Positions 43,951-49,410 of a DNA stretch of 64,000 nucleotides are shown here, piece after piece. The position numbers and the translations under genes were made by a program. The stretch's first letter is position 1. The number at the start of each line of letters is the position of its first letter. Under the pieces are notes generated by a model that was given only the letters and a program-made list of their open reading frames with translations, was not told the origin of the DNA and ran no database searches. This stretch comes from Escherichia phage PSD2001: sequence record OK254198.1; one strand, written 5' to 3'.

Positions 43951-45825
43951 TTAATTGAGAAGGTGTACAAGTTTTTCCATAGACAAATCATAAGAGATTC
44001 TGTCATATTTTTTCAAAAGCGAATTTGATTCGTCTATCTGGTCATTTTCTAAGATAGAGCATTCAACGAGAATGTATTTACCCATCGAACCCATCATGCC
44101 AGCTGTAGCACCATAGACTTTATCAATCTTAAGCATTGTTCCACGTGGAAGAATAACTTCGGTTTCAACGGACCAGTTTGCCAGGTCACCAGGAATAACT
44201 ACCTTGATATTTTCTGCACCTTTGATAATCATACCAATCTTGATTGTAGGTTTCGCCGAACCAGTTGCACTTTTAATAGTTGCATCGATTGCCCCATCAT
44301 CGATATCACTCGATAATGCATTTGGGTCAAGGTTCGCAGCGGTGTGGCCCATACGACCGAAAATATTTGGCGCCAGAGATGTACTCGCAAACATAGGAAG
44401 ATACATCGTTTTATTTTTGATGGAATTAATTGCCATATCGGTTGGCATGACTTGAGCACGGTAGATGATAGTTCCTTTTGGAAGCTTAACACCGTTTTCA
44501 AATACTTTATCCATATCGGAAATCATTTTGATTTCGCTTTCTTTTGCGTCAGCTTTCCCTAGCAGGAAATTATTGATTGCAGTATATTTTCCGCGAGTAT
44601 ACGCCTTAATTGCTTCGGCCTGGTCTTCAGTTATTTCAGGGTTGTCGGAGATATGAAATAATGGTTGGATGGCCTTGGTGTAAATTTCATCTGCAATAAT
44701 ACGAATAGCTTCTTTAGTCTTATCTTCGCGCGCCCAGGTTCCCACAATGGAGTCGTCAAGCAACATATCAGCAACTCTACGCAATGTATCAACAGGATTC
44801 TTTGAGGCTCGCAGGACGTTCGAAAACTCACTTATTTTGTGTTCCATGCCGACTTCTTTAAGAGCATTAAGCACATCCATAGCTACACGAGTTTTTGTCT
44901 TATCTTCACCGACATCGCCTTGCGCGACTAAATCAAAATAATCTGCATATTCATCACCTGCTCGGTCGATTACTTTTATCGAAGCTTTAGCTATCTGACT
45001 TTCTCTGGCATCATCTGTTGAATGCACTGCGCTGGTAGTCGAGAGCTTCGTATAAATCTCTTTATGTTCTGGCGAGAATTTAGCAAGCCCAGTTGGTTCG
45101 TTCCCCGAATACAACGCATTAATAGCCGCGCGTTTAGAAAACTTGGTTTTAACAACAACTGCCTGGTCTGTACGTTTTTCTTCAACCTTTGCAATGGATG
45201 CTGCAATAGCTTCATTTTTGGTAACAGTTTCACCGCTGGCTTTATCCACATAAACATCACCAACTTTCGATTCCACTTTTGTGTATAGCTCAGTGTTGAT
45301 GCCTGGAATTCCGGCGATAGATTCAATCGGTTTGGATTTACGATAAATCAATACGTAAGTATGTTTACCTGTGTATTGATACATATCATCCAGGACTTTG
45401 AATTGGCCACCCGCGCGAGCCATAATAAGTCGAGCAAGAACACGCTGAATGGTTCGTTCTTGCCCCTTCATTTTACGGGTCGGGAAGCGGAACATAATTG
45501 CATCCATTTTCATCAGTTTTACTTGTTCGTAAACTACATCAAAAATGGATTTAATTGCTCCAATCGGGTTATCACCAAGACCACCTTTAAGAATAGCTGG
45601 AGTACCGTTTGAATTTAATGACATCAAAATAACGTGTGCATACTTATCGCCAGTTTTGACCTGTTTAATAGCATCGCCTTCGGATGCGTAAGACACCATA
45701 CGAGCAATAAGATTATCATTCCCCGGGACCTGGATATTCCAAATCTGTGGAACTTTTGACTTTGAAAGGTTAATGGCCGGGATATTAGATTCCCCTTCAA
45801 AAACCTCTGACAATAATTCGGTCAT
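43951..45825 (-). CDS. Alt-like ADP-ribosyltransferase, paralog 2 (proximal)
   Basis: 624 aa; collinear with paralog 1 (PQ.W...VPG...L.ARM, FASTSL, ETEVILPRGT); 9-nt spacer to paralog 1. Confidence 0.75.
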   Translation of the reverse strand: MTELLSEVFEGESNIPAINLSKSKVPQIWNIQVPGNDNLIARMVSYASEGDAIKQVKTGDKYAHVILMSLNSNGTPAILKGGLGDNPIGAIKSIFDVVYEQVKLMKMDAIMFRFPTRKMKGQERTIQRVLARLIMARAGGQFKVLDDMYQYTGKHTYVLIYRKSKPIESIAGIPGINTELYTKVESKVGDVYVDKASGETVTKNEAIAASIAKVEEKRTDQAVVVKTKFSKRAAINALYSGNEPTGLAKFSPEHKEIYTKLSTTSAVHSTDDARESQIAKASIKVIDRAGDEYADYFDLVAQGDVGEDKTKTRVAMDVLNALKEVGMEHKISEFSNVLRASKNPVDTLRRVADMLLDDSIVGTWAREDKTKEAIRIIADEIYTKAIQPLFHISDNPEITEDQAEAIKAYTRGKYTAINNFLLGKADAKESEIKMISDMDKVFENGVKLPKGTIIYRAQVMPTDMAINSIKNKTMYLPMFASTSLAPNIFGRMGHTAANLDPNALSSDIDDGAIDATIKSATGSAKPTIKIGMIIKGAENIKVVIPGDLANWSVETEVILPRGTMLKIDKVYGATAGMMGSMGKYILVECSILENDQIDESNSLLKKYDRISYDLSMEKLVHLLN

Positions 45826-45858: not shown

Positions 45859-45866
45859 CGAAAAAA

Positions 45867-45890
45867 GGGCCGAAGCCCTTTTGTTATTTT
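45867..45890. terminator. Terminator after gene 30
   Basis: GGGCCGAAGCCC hairpin; on the minus strand it is followed by TTTTTTCG. Confidence 0.65.
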
Positions 45891-47425
45891 AATCCAGTCT
45901 TTGACCAGTCGCCAAATACATCTTCGAATGTGTCTGCATGGTCTTTATCGAAACGGAACCCTTTGATAATCGGCAGGAACAATGCAACCGTATTATCTTT
46001 ACGAGTCTCGGAAGTCAACCAACCATTACATTCACAGTCAGCAATCATTCCAACCAATTCACCTTTACGAGCTTTAACCATTAAGGCTTCACGGTCCATT
46101 TCATGACGCTCATCAATCGGAATAGAAACCCATTTTTTGGTTTTCTTATCTTTAACTTGAGTTGTGTCTTTAAAACCAGAACCACAGTTATTTCTAATCT
46201 TACCACAAGAAGAACGAAGCACAACACCGCCAATCTTATTCGGGTCTTTATCGTGCTCGTAATATTCAATGATTTCCATTGCAATGTCAATTACTTCTTT
46301 GAACTTATACAGGTTCTTTGAGCGCTTGTTTTCCCAAATCGATGCCATGTTCTTAAGGATAATACCTTCAAGACCTTCATCCACATATTTCTTATAGATA
46401 ACCTTCGCTTCATCGAGATTGTTAACAACATGGTTTTCAATCAGAATCATGCGGTCGAAACCATGTAGCACCACGTTATCTGCAATCATCTTTTCCAGAA
46501 CAGCAAAACGCACATCATATTTCAACGGATTGAGAATCTTAACATCAGAATAGACTTCAATCAGTGGAACATAATCCCAAACCTGGAATTTCATGCAAGA
46601 AGCTTCTGTTGCAGAAATAGTTCCTTTTAATGATTTGTTTGCCAGACCATTTGAAAAGGTTCTTGATTCTGCGAATTCCGCGAATTCTTTTGCCTTACTA
46701 AGCTCAGGCATATCGTCAAAAAGGAAGCCCAAACCGTCATTCTGGGGAGCTACTTTCTGTTCATGGTATACTAACTCGCCGTCAATCAAAACGCCCTCAG
46801 GATGTCTCTCACGCGCTTCACGGGTAGCTTCAATCAATTCCTTTTTAAGGAGGTCAAGCTTGAGGTATTCGTTGCCAGCTCGGGATAACAATCGAACATC
46901 ATCCAACTCATCGCCACGAACTTCTGCAAAACACCGAGCGCCGTCGGCTTTCAATTGCGCAAAGGCCGGGAACTTAATGTTCTTGGCAATACCGGCTTCA
47001 TCATAGGAAGAAGCGAGCATCTGTGGTTGTTCAGGAATTAAACCTTTCCAAACCTTATTCGCAATTGATACGGATGCCCCGCATTCCAGGTCACGCATCA
47101 TCACACGGCGAAGAACTTCAACATCAGCCTTTTTACCATCTGCAATATAGCCAGATAATTCCTCGATTGCAGCATTACCTGTCAATTTGCGAGAGGCCAA
47201 TGTGAATTCGATAAAGTCAAGCATATCATCGATATTCAGCATACCAAAGCTTTGTGTCGTTGCCCCAGGTTTAGGCCATTTCTTAATATAGAACTGGATG
47301 CCTTTGGAATATGTCAAACGATACACGCGTTTAAGGGTTTCATTGTCAGAATACGATTCCAGGATAGCTTGTTTCTCTTTAGTGGAATCGGTTGCAGCAA
47401 TTTCATTTAAAATATCTAAAATCAT
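45884..47425 (-). CDS. 30: ATP-dependent DNA ligase gp30
   Basis: 513 aa from ATG at 47425 (AAGAGGTGA RBS); strong similarity to remembered T4 DNA ligase (MIL.ILNEIA...KRVYRLTYS...YIKKWPKPG). Confidence 0.92.
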   Translation of the reverse strand: MILDILNEIAATDSTKEKQAILESYSDNETLKRVYRLTYSKGIQFYIKKWPKPGATTQSFGMLNIDDMLDFIEFTLASRKLTGNAAIEELSGYIADGKKADVEVLRRVMMRDLECGASVSIANKVWKGLIPEQPQMLASSYDEAGIAKNIKFPAFAQLKADGARCFAEVRGDELDDVRLLSRAGNEYLKLDLLKKELIEATREARERHPEGVLIDGELVYHEQKVAPQNDGLGFLFDDMPELSKAKEFAEFAESRTFSNGLANKSLKGTISATEASCMKFQVWDYVPLIEVYSDVKILNPLKYDVRFAVLEKMIADNVVLHGFDRMILIENHVVNNLDEAKVIYKKYVDEGLEGIILKNMASIWENKRSKNLYKFKEVIDIAMEIIEYYEHDKDPNKIGGVVLRSSCGKIRNNCGSGFKDTTQVKDKKTKKWVSIPIDERHEMDREALMVKARKGELVGMIADCECNGWLTSETRKDNTVALFLPIIKGFRFDKDHADTFEDVFGDWSKTGLK

Positions 47426-47434
47426 AATCACCTC

Positions 47435-47713
47435 TTAGTCGTTGGCTCTATTATATGCCACATCTTCCAAAAGCAAATCCAGGCGTTTGTGATAAGTGAA
47501 CACAAATTTAGTCGCTCCATCTGGTTTCATTTTAGTCATGAAGTGAACATAGATAAATCCTTGCTCAACACATTCACGCCAAACCGGATGGTCTTTGGCC
47601 GGATTAATATCAAACGAGTAATCATGATTCACATGACGAATAAACTGATTAACATGGCCATAATCCATGGTAGTAGTAGGACCGTAATCAGAAATAGTAT
47701 GAACGACAAACAT
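47435..47713 (-). CDS. Hypothetical protein (30.1 position)
   Basis: 92-aa ORF from ATG at 47713 overlapping the upstream stop (TGATG). Confidence 0.55.
   Translation of the reverse strand: MFVVHTISDYGPTTTMDYGHVNQFIRHVNHDYSFDINPAKDHPVWRECVEQGFIYVHFMTKMKPDGATKFVFTYHKRLDLLLEDVAYNRAND
47450..47477 (-). promoter_or_regulatory. Middle promoter for gene 30 (MotA box TTTGCTTTT, 13 nt, TATAAT)
   Basis: Minus strand ATTTGCTTTTggaagatgtggcaTATAAT within the 3' end of the upstream ORF. Confidence 0.45.
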
Positions 47714-48528
47714 CAATTACCCCCTTGGCCGCCAGTCGGTTGATTGTACCAATATTCAATGCCAGTACCTACGCGTGGACCATATTGATATGGATACGCT
47801 GGATTATATCCAGGAGTCCATGGTTGTCCAGGGCGCCAGCCTTGTTGCAGAAGACGACGAGTTTCACGAAACAGCTCGCCCAGTTTACGGAGTTCATCAG
47901 GGGTGTATTCTGGCTTGACCGGTTCATCTTTGTGTTTCAGTTTAAGCTGTCCAGCAACATCGTCCCAGTTAAAAACTTTGGAAGCTGTTTTAGGAATAGC
48001 ATCACGTTCACCACGAGCCATCCAATAAACCGGGACTTCAAGGATTTCACTCGCATGGTCGCAATGGTGTGCAAGGTCATCAATATAACAAACGACATTA
48101 TATTTGTCTTTTGCCTTCTGAAATAACTCTTCTTTAGAGGCTGTATGACCACACATCATCACTTCTTTAAACGCCCCAGGGAACAAAGCATTCAGGTTGA
48201 ATTGACGATTCAGGCGAGCATCAATAGAATCACCCAGGGCTGTAACAGCCACAAAATCATATTGCTCTTTGAGGTTATTAATAACCCTTAACGCATCTGT
48301 GTAAGGAGACAAATAGCGAATAAAATCTGAACAGTTATATTTTTCAATTAACTGTGCACCCAACTCTTCATCGCAATTGAACAGTTTACCAGGGGTCACA
48401 AATTTTTCATCCTGAATCATTTTAAGGATATGTTCCAGGGGTAAATTATATTTTTGGGCGAAATAAGGCAAGCCAGACTGCCATGACAAACATACGCCAT
48501 CAATATCTGTTAAAATAACGGGTTTCAT
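47713..48528 (-). CDS. HAD-superfamily phosphatase-like protein with Gly/Pro/Tyr-rich C-terminal tail
   Basis: 271 aa; HAD motif I ILTDIDGV and YIDD motif; last about 45 aa are low-complexity (GWRPGQPWTPGYNPAYPYQYGPRVGTG...GGQGGN). Confidence 0.6.
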   Translation of the reverse strand: MKPVILTDIDGVCLSWQSGLPYFAQKYNLPLEHILKMIQDEKFVTPGKLFNCDEELGAQLIEKYNCSDFIRYLSPYTDALRVINNLKEQYDFVAVTALGDSIDARLNRQFNLNALFPGAFKEVMMCGHTASKEELFQKAKDKYNVVCYIDDLAHHCDHASEILEVPVYWMARGERDAIPKTASKVFNWDDVAGQLKLKHKDEPVKPEYTPDELRKLGELFRETRRLLQQGWRPGQPWTPGYNPAYPYQYGPRVGTGIEYWYNQPTGGQGGN

Positions 48529-48983
48529 AATGCATCTCTCAATTGGTTAAGTATGTCAATAAATTCTTGTTCAGTCAATATTGTATCATGAACAGTAAGG
48601 TGACTTGCCATCGAATGCTTTAAAACTTTGCCCTTTGTGGCTTGTAATGCGTCGCGGAATCCTTTGTTTTGGAGCGCTGCTTCAAAATATGCATTTGTAT
48701 ACAACTCTTTCCATGATGTAGAGTATCTTGAAAAGGGAATTCCAAGCCAGAAAAGCGTCCCACGGTCCGCAGCTCTTGCATAAGCTCTTCCACTTTGCTG
48801 GGCGGCCAATCCGGACATCCCAAATATACGTTTTTGTTGTTCATTATTTCTCACCTTGCACCCTTGGAGGAAGCCTTCAAGACCTCCAAACTGGATACCC
48901 TCCATAACAAAAGGCCATTTAGCAAAGTTACTTAATGCACATGACGGCCATGGGAAATTGCTTCTGATTTCTAACTCAGACAT
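48525..48983 (-). CDS. YbiA/NADAR-like (DUF1768-type) protein (30.3 position)
   Basis: 152 aa from the internal ATG; LSNFAKWPF...GIQF...EGFLQGCK resembles the FSNFA.WP...EHYFQA.K core of E. coli YbiA. Confidence 0.55.
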   Translation of the reverse strand: MSELEIRSNFPWPSCALSNFAKWPFVMEGIQFGGLEGFLQGCKVRNNEQQKRIFGMSGLAAQQSGRAYARAADRGTLFWLGIPFSRYSTSWKELYTNAYFEAALQNKGFRDALQATKGKVLKHSMASHLTVHDTILTEQEFIDILNQLRDAL

Positions 48984-49188
48984 CTTTGACACTGATAATC
49001 TTGGTTGCATACCACATGCCATGGTCTGGCAATCTTTCTTTAATTGACCGTCCGCGATATGTTTTTCGCATAACAACAGTTTTAATAGCATCTTCATCGC
49101 AAGCATATGGCGGTGATAAATCAATAACACGATAAGTCACTTCAACCATTTCCAAGCCAAACAGCTTTTTAAATAATTTCTTAATCAT
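48976..49188 (-). CDS. Hypothetical 70-aa protein, tandem paralog B
   Basis: Shares M.KKL..K..G.EMVEVTYR..D.SP...R.P..G.W....IISVKD with the adjacent ORF. Confidence 0.55.
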   Translation of the reverse strand: MIKKLFKKLFGLEMVEVTYRVIDLSPPYACDEDAIKTVVMRKTYRGRSIKERLPDHGMWYATKIISVKDV

Positions 49189-49197
49189 GAAGATTCC

Positions 49198-49410
49198 TTA
49201 AATATCTTTGACGCTGATAATCTCTACATCAGCCCAATGACCATAACCAGGTAGACGGTCTTTAATAGATAATCCACCGTCAGATTTCAGCATTTTAATT
49301 GTTTTAGTATATGGTTCAATATTTCGGGCCCATGGACTCACGTCTGTTATGCGATAAGTCACTTCAACCATTTCTGTTCCCAAAATTTTCTGAATCAGTT
49401 TCTTAAACAT
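49198..49410 (-). CDS. Hypothetical 70-aa protein, tandem paralog A
   Basis: About half the residues identical to paralog B. Confidence 0.55.
   Translation of the reverse strand: MFKKLIQKILGTEMVEVTYRITDVSPWARNIEPYTKTIKMLKSDGGLSIKDRLPGYGHWADVEIISVKDI

What the first reader, a model, noticed from the sequence alone, without database searches (positions are those of the whole stretch)
47435..48983. YbiA/NADAR-like and HAD-like genes with an odd low-complexity tail, just upstream of DNA ligase
The ORF at 48525-48983 carries a YbiA/NADAR-like core (SNFAKWP ... EGFLQGCK), a family linked to reversal of ADP-ribose and N-glycoside modifications. The adjacent HAD-family protein (DIDGV, YIDD) ends in a 45-aa Gly/Pro/Tyr-rich tail that is atypical for HAD phosphatases. 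Together with ligase 30 and the nearby Alt pair this could form a nucleotide or ADP-ribose processing module, possibly with an anti-defence role.
Basis: inference. Interest (0 to 1): 0.45.

Follow-up and report, generated by a model that had tools for sequence, protein, structure and literature searches.

The report
T4 genes adfN, 30.2, 30.1
These are the ordinary T4-phage genes 30.3, 30.2 and 30.1: 30.3 is the already published anti-DarT enzyme AdfN, and 30.2 is an uncharacterised phosphatase whose odd Gly/Pro/Tyr-rich tail is real and conserved but of unknown purpose.

Summary
The window comes from an SP18/VR7-like T-even phage (Gaprivervirus). The flagged stretch holds genes 30.3, 30.2 and 30.1, directly upstream of DNA ligase gene 30.

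**30.3 (48525-48983, minus strand).** It is 85% identical to T4 gp30.3, published as AdfN. AdfN is a NADAR enzyme that removes ADP-ribose from guanine in DNA and defeats DarTG1 defence. Fold, E36, K43, H123 and the C-terminal helix are all present.

**30.2 (47713-48528, minus strand).** It is a capped HAD phosphatase with all four motifs invariant. Bridging homologs link it to the NT5C 5'(3')-deoxyribonucleotidase family. Its substrate is unknown.

**The tail.**
- It is not a frameshift artefact. It is in frame in all 32 close relatives, with dN/dS of 0.04-0.15.
- It ends in a GxG(I/V)EY(L/W)xxQPT motif shared with T4 and Klebsiella-type relatives.
- About half of the family has only a short C-terminal extension (35 residues or fewer).
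- The tail was found on no other protein.

**No module.** 30.2 almost always travels with ligase. Only 19 of the 80 best gp30.3-like loci have 30.2 within 6 kb.

Interest is low. One untested lead is that 30.2 could be the unknown T-even factor AdfN needs.

The parts
48525..48983 (-). Gene 30.3 = adfN. A 152-aa NADAR-family glycohydrolase that removes ADP-ribose from guanine in DNA (anti-DarT factor).
   Evidence: PF08010 at 5.7e-64. 85% identical to T4 gp30.3 and the same length. E36 and H123 are invariant and K43 nearly invariant across 60 homologs. AlphaFold2 pLDDT 93.7. Foldseek top three are YbiA, PnNADAR and GlNADAR. The function was shown experimentally for the T4 ortholog (PMC11825919; PMC11125620).
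47941..48528 (-). Gene 30.2, residues 1-196: the HAD phosphatase core with a helical C1 cap. It is related to the NT5C family.
47845..47940 (-). Gene 30.2, residues 197-228: a charged linker containing a predicted amphipathic helix (residues 210-228).
   Evidence: AlphaFold2 predicts helix 210-228, with 10-residue-block pLDDT of 93 and 86. 47% of these residues are charged. A comparable helix-like segment precedes the tails of other lineages.
47716..47844 (-). Gene 30.2, residues 229-271: the predicted-disordered Gly/Pro/Tyr/Trp/Gln-rich tail.
   Evidence: 79% of residues are G/P/Y/W/Q/N. pLDDT is about 50. The tail is in frame in all 32 SP18-like records. dN/dS is 0.04-0.10, with changes mostly at third codon positions.
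47734..47769 (-). Terminal motif GTGIEYWYNQPT (residues 254-265). The family consensus is GxG(I/V)EY(L/W)xxQPT.
   Evidence: 17 of 119 cluster representatives match a looser core pattern of this motif, [IVL]E[YW][LWY]xx[QR][PA][TK], including T4-type and Klebsiella-phage proteins. It is unique in the window. In IMG/VR, an exact search for the GTGIEYLxxQPT variant (Leu at the L/W position) hit only 30.2 genes. A profile of the tails found no other protein among 1.84 billion representatives.
47435..47713 (-). Gene 30.1: a 92-aa DUF3045 protein of unknown function. Its ATG overlaps the 30.2 stop codon (TGATG).
   Evidence: PF11243 at 6e-18 and phrog_2054 at 1e-35. SP18 and T4 annotate it as gp30.1. 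One cluster, P0141, reads as a 30.2 core fused to DUF3045.
45884..47425 (-). Gene 30: ATP-dependent DNA ligase. Included as context; it is the most constant neighbour of 30.2.
   Evidence: PF01068 at 3e-28 and phrog_114 at 1e-155. Ligase lies downstream of 30.2 in 72 of 76 viral loci, and within 600 nt in 68.

Best explanation
The stretch holds three conserved early genes of a T-even phage. They sit in one tightly packed, probably translationally coupled run: 30.4, 30.3, 30.2, 30.1, then ligase.

**Gene 30.3** is the ortholog of T4 AdfN. This NADAR-fold glycohydrolase cuts ADP-ribose off the guanine bases that the host DarT1 toxin modifies, so phage DNA can replicate in DarTG1-carrying cells. 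The activity was shown for T4. It is inferred here from 85% identity, intact catalytic residues and an intact C-terminal helix.

**Gene 30.2** is an independent, phage-restricted, Mg-dependent HAD phosphomonoesterase. D8 is the predicted nucleophile, D10 the acid/base, T96 and K132 bind phosphate, and D150/D151 bind metal. A closed helical cap argues for a small substrate. That substrate is most likely a (deoxy)nucleoside monophosphate, because the family connects to NT5C 5'(3')-deoxyribonucleotidases. This substrate call is an inference.

**The 30.2 C-terminus** is a charged helix followed by a disordered tail rich in Pro, Trp, Tyr and Gly, ending in a short conserved motif. It is best read as a fast-evolving docking peptide for an unidentified partner. 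This is also an inference.

**Gene 30.1** (DUF3045) has no assignable function.

The three genes are neighbours through T4-type gene order. They are not a demonstrated ADP-ribose module.
For: **Phage identity.** Megablast gives 95% identity to SP18-like phages, which annotate gp30, 30.1, 30.2 and 30.3 in the same order. T4 has the same order.

**AdfN.**
- PF08010 scores 214.5 bits.
- The protein is 85% identical to T4 gp30.3.
- E36 and H123 are invariant and K43 nearly invariant.
- The model has pLDDT 93.7, and helix 138-151 is present.
- Foldseek hits 2b3w, 8bau and 8bat at probability 0.99-1.00, with nothing else below E=1.
- Experiments on T4 AdfN identify E36 and K43 as catalytic and show that the RB69 truncation is inactive (PMC11825919). 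RB69 gp30.3 is indeed 137 aa.
- The phage-specific His in the last strand is described in PMC11125620.

**HAD.**
- The four motifs are invariant or nearly so, and the model is confident.
- The best PDB sequence hit is cdN 2jao at E=0.21, which is weak.
- 21 of 107 members give sub-threshold NT5C hits.
- Bridging homologs support the NT5C link: L076 at 99.2% probability with NT5C 24.0 bits, and L168 at 98.9% with NT5C 38.7 bits.

**Tail.**

**Linkage statistics.**
Against: - No activity was measured for any of the window's proteins.
- The window's 30.2 itself hits no Pfam or NCBIfam model. HAD substrates cannot be read reliably from the fold.
- The docking-peptide reading of the tail rests only on composition, predicted disorder and motif conservation. 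No partner is known.
- The ATGA overlap of 30.3 and 30.2 is at least compatible with functional coupling. So is the published statement that AdfN(T4) needs an unknown T-even factor.
Confidence: 0.8

Rival explanations
1. Genes 30.3 and 30.2 (perhaps with 30.1) work together. gp30.2 would be the unidentified T-even factor that AdfN needs for full activity. It could process the released ADP-ribose or its breakdown products, or it could localise or stabilise AdfN through its tail.
For: - The paper reports that AdfN(T4) does not rescue uninfected E. coli and only partly rescues non-T-even phages, and it proposes an unknown phage factor (PMC11825919).
- 30.3 and 30.2 overlap by ATGA.
- They are adjacent in T4, RB69, SP18-like and some Acinetobacter- and Aeromonas-type loci: 22 of 76.
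- RB69, which fully supports ectopic AdfN(T4), carries 30.2 with a tail.
Against: - 61 of the 80 best gp30.3-like loci lack 30.2 within 6 kb.
- At least nine T4-like genomes keep the two genes about 60 kb apart.
- 30.2 is present without a nearby 30.3 in half of its loci.
- 30.2 is one of many genes shared by T4 and RB69, so the prior is low.
- No known chemistry requires a phosphatase for N-glycosidic removal of ADP-ribose.
Confidence: 0.07
2. gp30.2 is a nucleic-acid end-healing 3'-phosphatase that prepares nicks for the adjacent DNA ligase. This would mirror the HAD phosphatase domain of T4 Pnkp or eukaryotic PNKP/Tpp1.
For: - The 30.2-to-ligase adjacency is by far the most conserved linkage. 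It holds in 72 of 76 loci, from T-even to KVP40-size phages.
- There is a weak phrog_415 polynucleotide-kinase hit at 4.5e-4.
Against: - The confident model has a full helical C1 cap, roughly residues 16-86, over the active site. Such caps are typical of small-molecule HADs. The Pnkp-type match covers only the 126-128-residue core.
- Bridging homologs belong to NT5C nucleotidases.
- Conserved gene order in T4-like core regions is not by itself evidence of shared function.
Confidence: 0.1
3. The low-complexity tail is an artefact: a frameshift or sequencing error, or a read-through of non-coding DNA.
For: The composition is unusual and the model is disordered there. In-frame indels occur in the Gln-rich part.
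Against: - The same tail is in frame in all 32 SP18-like records, at 79-99% identity.
- dN/dS is 0.04-0.15, with substitutions concentrated at third positions.
- T4, RB69 and Klebsiella-type phages have tails of the same build, and many share the terminal motif.
Confidence: 0.01
4. Conservation of the tail-coding DNA reflects an embedded regulatory element for 30.1 and ligase rather than a protein function.
For: A sigma-70-like site matching 11 of 12 positions (TGGACA-16-TATAAT) lies at 47830-47803 on the coding strand, about 90 nt upstream of the 30.1 start.
Against: - The total number of promoter-like sites in the region is at chance level: 21 against 19.9 expected.
- The substitution pattern is that of a translated frame.
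- The conserved motif is defined at the amino-acid level across lineages with divergent DNA.
- The hexamers coincide with the conserved peptide PGQ...GYNP, so the two signals cannot be separated.
Confidence: 0.05

Closest known systems
T4 AdfN (gp30.3), anti-DarT factor NADAR; Pfam PF08010 Phage_30_3
   Same: 85% identity over all 152 residues. It has the same catalytic E36 and K43, the phage-type H123 and the C-terminal helix. The genomic position between 30.4 and 30.2 is also the same.
   Different: 23 substitutions, none at the known catalytic positions. No experimental data exist for this allele.
DarG1-type and YbiA-type NADAR proteins (PDB 8bat, 8bau, 2b3w)
   Same: The same YbiA fold (Foldseek probability 0.99-1.00, TM 0.58-0.67) and the same Glu/Lys catalytic pair.
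   Different: Only 15-18% identity. It lacks the N-terminal extension of DarT1-linked NADARs and has His instead of Asp/Glu in the last strand (PMC11125620, PMC11825919). It is an orphan, not paired with a toxin.
NT5C family 5'(3')-deoxyribonucleotidases (cdN/mdN; Pfam PF06941)
   Same: A C1-capped HAD with a DxDGV...(F/W)xSGL start. cdN is the best PDB sequence hit, and cdN/mdN/3bwv are among the best structural hits. Homologs of 30.2 reach or approach the NT5C threshold.
   Different: The window protein scores nothing against PF06941. The family is divergent and almost confined to T4-like phages. NT5C enzymes have no Pro/Trp/Tyr-rich tail.
T4 gp30.2 and RB69 gp30.2 (hypothetical proteins)
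   Same: Orthologs. The core of about 195 residues is highly conserved (66% identity overall to T4). All share the helix-plus-P/W/Y-rich tail build. T4 also shares the G(I/V)EY(L)xN(R/Q)PT motif.
   Different: Tail sequences diverge fast: tail dN is about 0.8 against 0.12 for the core. RB69 lacks the terminal motif. About half of the family's cluster representatives have only a short C-terminal extension of 35 residues or fewer.
T5 Dmp deoxynucleoside-5'-monophosphatase
   Same: A phage-encoded nucleotidase with a DLDG motif I. It is a functional precedent for phage dNMP phosphatases.
   Different: There is no detectable relationship beyond motif I (hhalign probability 1.7%).

Membership tests
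NADAR superfamily / phage gp30.3 (AdfN) subfamily | Sequence match to Pfam PF08010 above the curated cut-off | tested here: met
   214.5 bits against a cut-off of 36, covering profile positions 2-138 of 138.
NADAR superfamily / phage gp30.3 (AdfN) subfamily | YbiA fold (core helices flanked by small sheets) | tested here: met
   AlphaFold2 pLDDT 93.7 and pTM 0.89. Foldseek's top three hits are the three NADAR structures, and no other hit falls below E=1.
NADAR superfamily / phage gp30.3 (AdfN) subfamily | Catalytic Glu and Lys (E36, K43 in T4 AdfN), plus the His in the last strand that marks phage NADARs | tested here: met
   E36 and H123 are invariant and K43 is at least 90% conserved in 60 homologs, and all three are present in the window protein. 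Their roles are taken from PMC11825919 and PMC11125620.
NADAR superfamily / phage gp30.3 (AdfN) subfamily | Intact C-terminal helix (its loss inactivates the RB69 allele) | tested here: met
   The protein is 152 aa with a predicted helix at 138-151. RB69 stops at residue 137.
NADAR superfamily / phage gp30.3 (AdfN) subfamily | Hydrolysis of guanine-linked ADP-ribose on DNA, and protection from DarTG1 | not testable with these tools
   Shown only for the T4 ortholog.
HAD superfamily phosphatases (C1-capped) | The four catalytic motifs: DxD, S/T, K and DD | tested here: met
   D8, D10, K132, D150 and D151 are invariant and T96 is at least 90% conserved across 107 sequences.
HAD superfamily phosphatases (C1-capped) | Rossmann-like core with a helical cap inserted after motif I | tested here: met
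HAD superfamily phosphatases (C1-capped) | Match to a curated HAD sequence model | tested here: not met
   The window protein has no Pfam or NCBIfam hit. Only sub-threshold PF00702 hits occur, in 25 of 107 members.
NT5C 5'(3')-deoxyribonucleotidase family (PF06941) | Score above the Pfam gathering threshold | tested here: not met
   The window protein has no hit. 21 of 107 members hit below threshold. Family homologs score 24.0 bits (L076) and 38.7 bits (L168) against a cut-off of 24.8. These are linked to the 30.2 profile at 99.2% and 98.9% probability.
NT5C 5'(3')-deoxyribonucleotidase family (PF06941) | Nucleotide-binding cap residues and dNMP phosphatase activity | not tested
   Only the alignment of DIDGVCLSWQSGL with the cdN segment DGVLADFESGL was seen. 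No residue-level structural comparison or assay was possible.
DUF3045 (gp30.1) | Score above the Pfam gathering threshold | tested here: met
   65.2 bits against a cut-off of 27.

The most novel reading that the evidence does not exclude
The Pro/Trp/Tyr-rich tail of gp30.2, with its GxG(I/V)EY(L/W)xxQPT end, is a docking peptide. It would tether an NT5C-like nucleotidase to a phage complex such as ligase, the replisome or AdfN. In this reading, gp30.2 is the unknown T-even factor that the published work says AdfN needs for full anti-DarT activity.
Probability: 0.06. Interest if true: 0.6.

Novelty: already known. Interest (0 to 1): 0.2.

Why it matters
The most striking part of the finding, a phage NADAR enzyme acting against DarT-type defence, is correct. 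It was published in 2024-2025 for T4 gp30.3 (AdfN), so this window only adds another intact allele.

What remains open is modest. gp30.2 is almost universal in T4-like phages, sits next to ligase, looks like a nucleotidase, and has never been studied. Its fast-evolving tail with a conserved end motif suggests an unknown binding partner.

If that partner, or gp30.2 itself, turned out to be the factor that makes AdfN work only in T-even infections, it would close a question the AdfN authors left open.

Tried and rejected
- **Sequence-profile search of the 30.3 family against PDB.** It gave only YbiA, at E=0.023. That was too weak alone, so the fold was confirmed by structure instead.
- **30.2 profile against PDB sequences.** It gave only cdN at E=0.21, plus a spurious EngB hit.
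- **NCBIfam and PADLOC.** Nothing useful came back for any of the three proteins.
- **T5 Dmp as a relative of 30.2.** Rejected at hhalign probability 1.7%. Dmp itself has no Pfam hit.
- **Tail as a mobile domain.**
  - A profile of 16 tails against 1.84 billion representatives found only a family member.
  - An exact degenerate-DNA search for GTGIEYLxxQPT in IMG/VR hit only six known 30.2 genes.
  - No second copy of the motif exists in the window.
- **Promoter and terminator scan.** Counts were at chance level.
- **Literature.** No held paper mentions gp30.2 or DUF3045. The single Tevenvirinae-plus-HAD paper is unrelated.
- **Cellular homologs of 30.2.** There were only 9 hits in 185,579 species genomes. 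The closest (49% identity) carries the phage-type 30.3-30.2-ligase arrangement; most others are in metagenome-assembled (MAG) contigs.
Full report
**What is there**

The interval lies on the minus strand of a T-even-type phage genome. Megablast of 47200-49200 finds 240 phage records. The best are SP18/VR7-like Escherichia and Shigella phages (Gaprivervirus) at 93-96% identity.

SP18 annotates the matching genes as gp30 (DNA ligase), gp30.1, gp30.2, gp30.3 and gp30.4. Two Alt-like ADP-ribosyltransferase genes lie beyond ligase. T4 has the same order.

In window coordinates the genes are as follows:

| Gene | Coordinates |
|---|---|
| 30.3 | 48525-48983 |
| 30.2 | 47713-48528 |
| 30.1 | 47435-47713 |
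| ligase | 45884-47425 |

The genes overlap or abut. 30.4/30.3 overlap by 8 nt, 30.3/30.2 as ATGA and 30.2/30.1 as TGATG. The 30.1 stop is followed by GAGGTG and the ligase ATG. A hairpin with a T-run follows ligase at 45863-45882.

**Gene 30.3 is AdfN**

- **Family.** The 152-aa protein matches Pfam PF08010 (Phage_30_3) at 5.7e-64.
- **Identity.** It is 85% identical, without gaps, to T4 gp30.3.
- **Conserved residues.** In an alignment of 60 homologs, E36 and H123 are invariant and K43 is nearly so.
- **Link to NADAR.** Several homologs also carry pre-computed hits to PF08719 (NADAR/DUF1768), and JGI names them YbiA-like. A sequence profile reaches E. coli YbiA only weakly, at E=0.023.
- **Fold.** The AlphaFold2 model (pLDDT 93.7) finds exactly the three solved NADAR structures as its only meaningful PDB matches: YbiA 2b3w, Phytophthora NADAR 8bau and Geobacter DarG1-type NADAR 8bat.

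Two papers settle the function of the T4 ortholog.
- Toxins 2024 (PMC11125620) showed that T4 gp30.3 hydrolyses guanine-linked ADP-ribose on DNA in vitro. It also noted the His that replaces Asp/Glu in phage NADARs.
- Johannesman et al., Nat Commun 2025 (PMC11825919) renamed the gene adfN. They showed it is necessary and sufficient for T-even resistance to DarTG1, and that E36 and K43 are required. RB69 is sensitive because a frameshift removes the last 15 residues.

I confirmed that RB69 gp30.3 stops at residue 137. The window allele is full length, with a predicted helix at 138-151.

**Gene 30.2 is a capped HAD phosphatase**

- **Curated models.** No Pfam or NCBIfam model hits the window protein. 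It belongs to phrog_420, of unknown function, at 2e-77.
- **Motifs.** In 107 homologs, D8, D10, K132, D150 and D151 are invariant and T96 is nearly so. These are the four HAD motifs, including the second Asp that marks phosphatases.
- **Model.** The AlphaFold2 model is confident over residues 1-200. It shows a Rossmann-like core with a helical cap, then a helix at 210-228, and about 50 pLDDT from residue 230 onward.
- **Structural neighbours.**
  - Foldseek returns 128 PDB hits at E<=1e-3; all 50 listed are HADs. They include mouse and human 5'(3')-deoxyribonucleotidases and the deoxyribonucleotidase-like 3bwv, at TM up to 0.70 on the target.
  - The fold is therefore certain but the subfamily is not.

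Sequence evidence points to NT5C.
- cdN is the top PDB sequence hit, at a weak E=0.21. It aligns DIDGVCLSWQSGL with DGVLADFESGL.
- 21 of 107 members give sub-threshold NT5C hits.
- Two bridging homologs join the families.
  - A viral protein, L076:3989-4570, matches the 30.2 profile at 99.2% and scores 24.0 bits on NT5C against a cut-off of 24.8.
  - A Bdellovibrionales chromosomal protein, L168:4977-5609, matches at 98.9% and passes NT5C with 38.7 bits.

I therefore read gp30.2 as an NT5C-related nucleotide phosphatase, at roughly even odds on the substrate class. T5 Dmp, the classic phage dNMP phosphatase, is not detectably related. No held paper mentions gp30.2.

**The tail**

- **Composition.** Residues 229-271 are 53% Gly/Pro/Tyr and 79% G/P/Y/W/Q/N, against 13% and 24% in the core.
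- **Not an artefact.**
  - The 75-residue C-terminal segment is found in frame in all 32 SP18-like records, at 79-99% identity with in-frame length variation.
  - Against four close relatives, dN/dS for residues 230-271 is 0.04-0.10. Differences are concentrated at third codon positions, for example 0/1/7 and 2/2/15.
- **Fast divergence between genera.** Tail dN against T4 is about 0.8, compared with 0.12 for the core.
- **A recurring build.** A charged helix is followed by a Pro/Trp-rich stretch and a short hydrophobic end. Trp and Pro are each about threefold enriched in the last 45 residues of tails.
- **Terminal motif.** 17 of 119 cluster representatives match a looser core pattern of the motif, [IVL]E[YW][LWY]xx[QR][PA][TK]; the family consensus is GxG(I/V)EY(L/W)xxQPT. 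They include the T4-type protein and Klebsiella-phage proteins. RB69 has a tail without the motif.
- **Distribution.** About half of the representatives (58 of 119) have only a short C-terminal extension of 35 residues or fewer. Phages of Acinetobacter, Serratia, Pectobacterium, Shewanella and others have 0-35 residues after the core.
- **Specific to this family.**
  - A tail profile found no other protein among 1.84 billion representatives.
  - An exact degenerate search of IMG/VR for the GTGIEYLxxQPT variant hit only 30.2 genes.
  - The window has no second copy of the motif.

A disordered, rapidly evolving extension with a conserved terminal motif is most simply a docking peptide. The partner is unknown and this remains an inference.

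**Is there a module?**

| Loci examined | Observation |
|---|---|
| 76 viral loci with 30.2 | Ligase lies downstream on the same strand in 72, within 600 nt in 68 |
| 76 viral loci with 30.2 | A gp30.3-like gene lies within 4 kb upstream in 38, adjacent in 22 |
| 80 best gp30.3-like loci | Only 19 have 30.2 within 6 kb |

At least nine T4-like genomes carry the two genes about 60 kb apart.

The NADAR and the HAD are therefore independent genes that happen to be neighbours in T-even phages. The constant 30.2-ligase pairing may be functional, or may simply reflect the conserved core gene order of T4-like genomes. The capped active site argues against a DNA-end phosphatase role.

Nothing connects the Alt proteins to either gene.

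One lead remains. The AdfN paper concludes that AdfN(T4) needs an unknown T-even-encoded factor, and 30.2, 30.1 and 30.4 are the nearest candidates. The phyletic data give this little support, and I rate it at about 6-7%.

**Verdict**

The principal item is already known. The tail of gp30.2 is a genuine, undescribed but minor curiosity.

Noticed in passing
window 48976-49188 and 49198-49410 (minus strand): Two tandem 70-aa paralogs, both matching phrog_2042 (the gp30.4 family). SP18 and T4 have a single 30.4 followed by 30.5. The DNA match to SP18-type records stops near 49000, while TH44, CJ20 and the other closest relatives continue.
   Followed up: partly
window 48620-48844 (minus strand): A 74-aa ORF in a second frame inside adfN. 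It corresponds in position to T4 gene 30.3', which T4 annotates as internal translation in a different frame.
   Followed up: no
window 48525-49130 (minus strand): The 30.3 reading frame stays open upstream to a GTG at 49130 (201 aa), overlapping 30.4. The Toxins 2024 paper cloned T4 gp30.3 as 'residues 1-208', whereas RefSeq T4 and the AdfN paper use 152 aa with E36 and K43. The longer form may be an old mis-annotation.
   Followed up: no
window 47830-47803 (minus strand): A promoter-like site, TGGACA-16-TATAAT (11 of 12 matches), lies inside the tail-coding part of 30.2, about 90 nt upstream of 30.1. Promoter-like counts in the region are otherwise at chance level.
   Followed up: partly
window 45863-45882 and 50843-50824: Two strong GC-rich hairpins with T-runs. 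One is just after the ligase stop and is palindromic, so it is usable on either strand. The other lies upstream of gene 30.8. They probably bound the transcription units.
   Followed up: no
protein P0141; proteins P0182 and P0184 (Yersinia phage phiR1-RT type): P0141 reads as a 30.2 core fused in frame to a DUF3045 (30.1) domain (PF11243 at 8e-15). This could be a real fusion or a lost stop codon. P0182 and P0184 replace the tail with a different domain of 115-130 aa that has no Pfam match.
   Followed up: partly
L168 4977-5609 and 5622-6266; L169 3586-5639: Cellular-looking relatives of 30.2 occur as tandem paralogs. There are two in a 723-kb Bdellovibrionales contig, near the rpoA, adk and ribosomal-protein genes. 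There are three in a 174-kb contig binned as Rickettsiales.
   Followed up: partly
loci L103, L125, L128, L132, L141, L146, L147, L154, L158 compared with L038, L066, L020, L019, L030, L023, L072, L034, L022: In at least nine T4-like genomes, the gp30.3-like NADAR gene sits about 60 kb away from the 30.2-ligase pair. The NADAR gene has therefore moved, or been acquired separately, within the T4 superfamily.
   Followed up: partly
window 43951-45825 (minus strand) and upstream: An Alt-like ADP-ribosyltransferase of 624 aa. SP18 annotates two tandem alt genes (altA and altB) here, whereas T4 has one alt plus the remnants alt.-1 and alt.-2.
   Followed up: no
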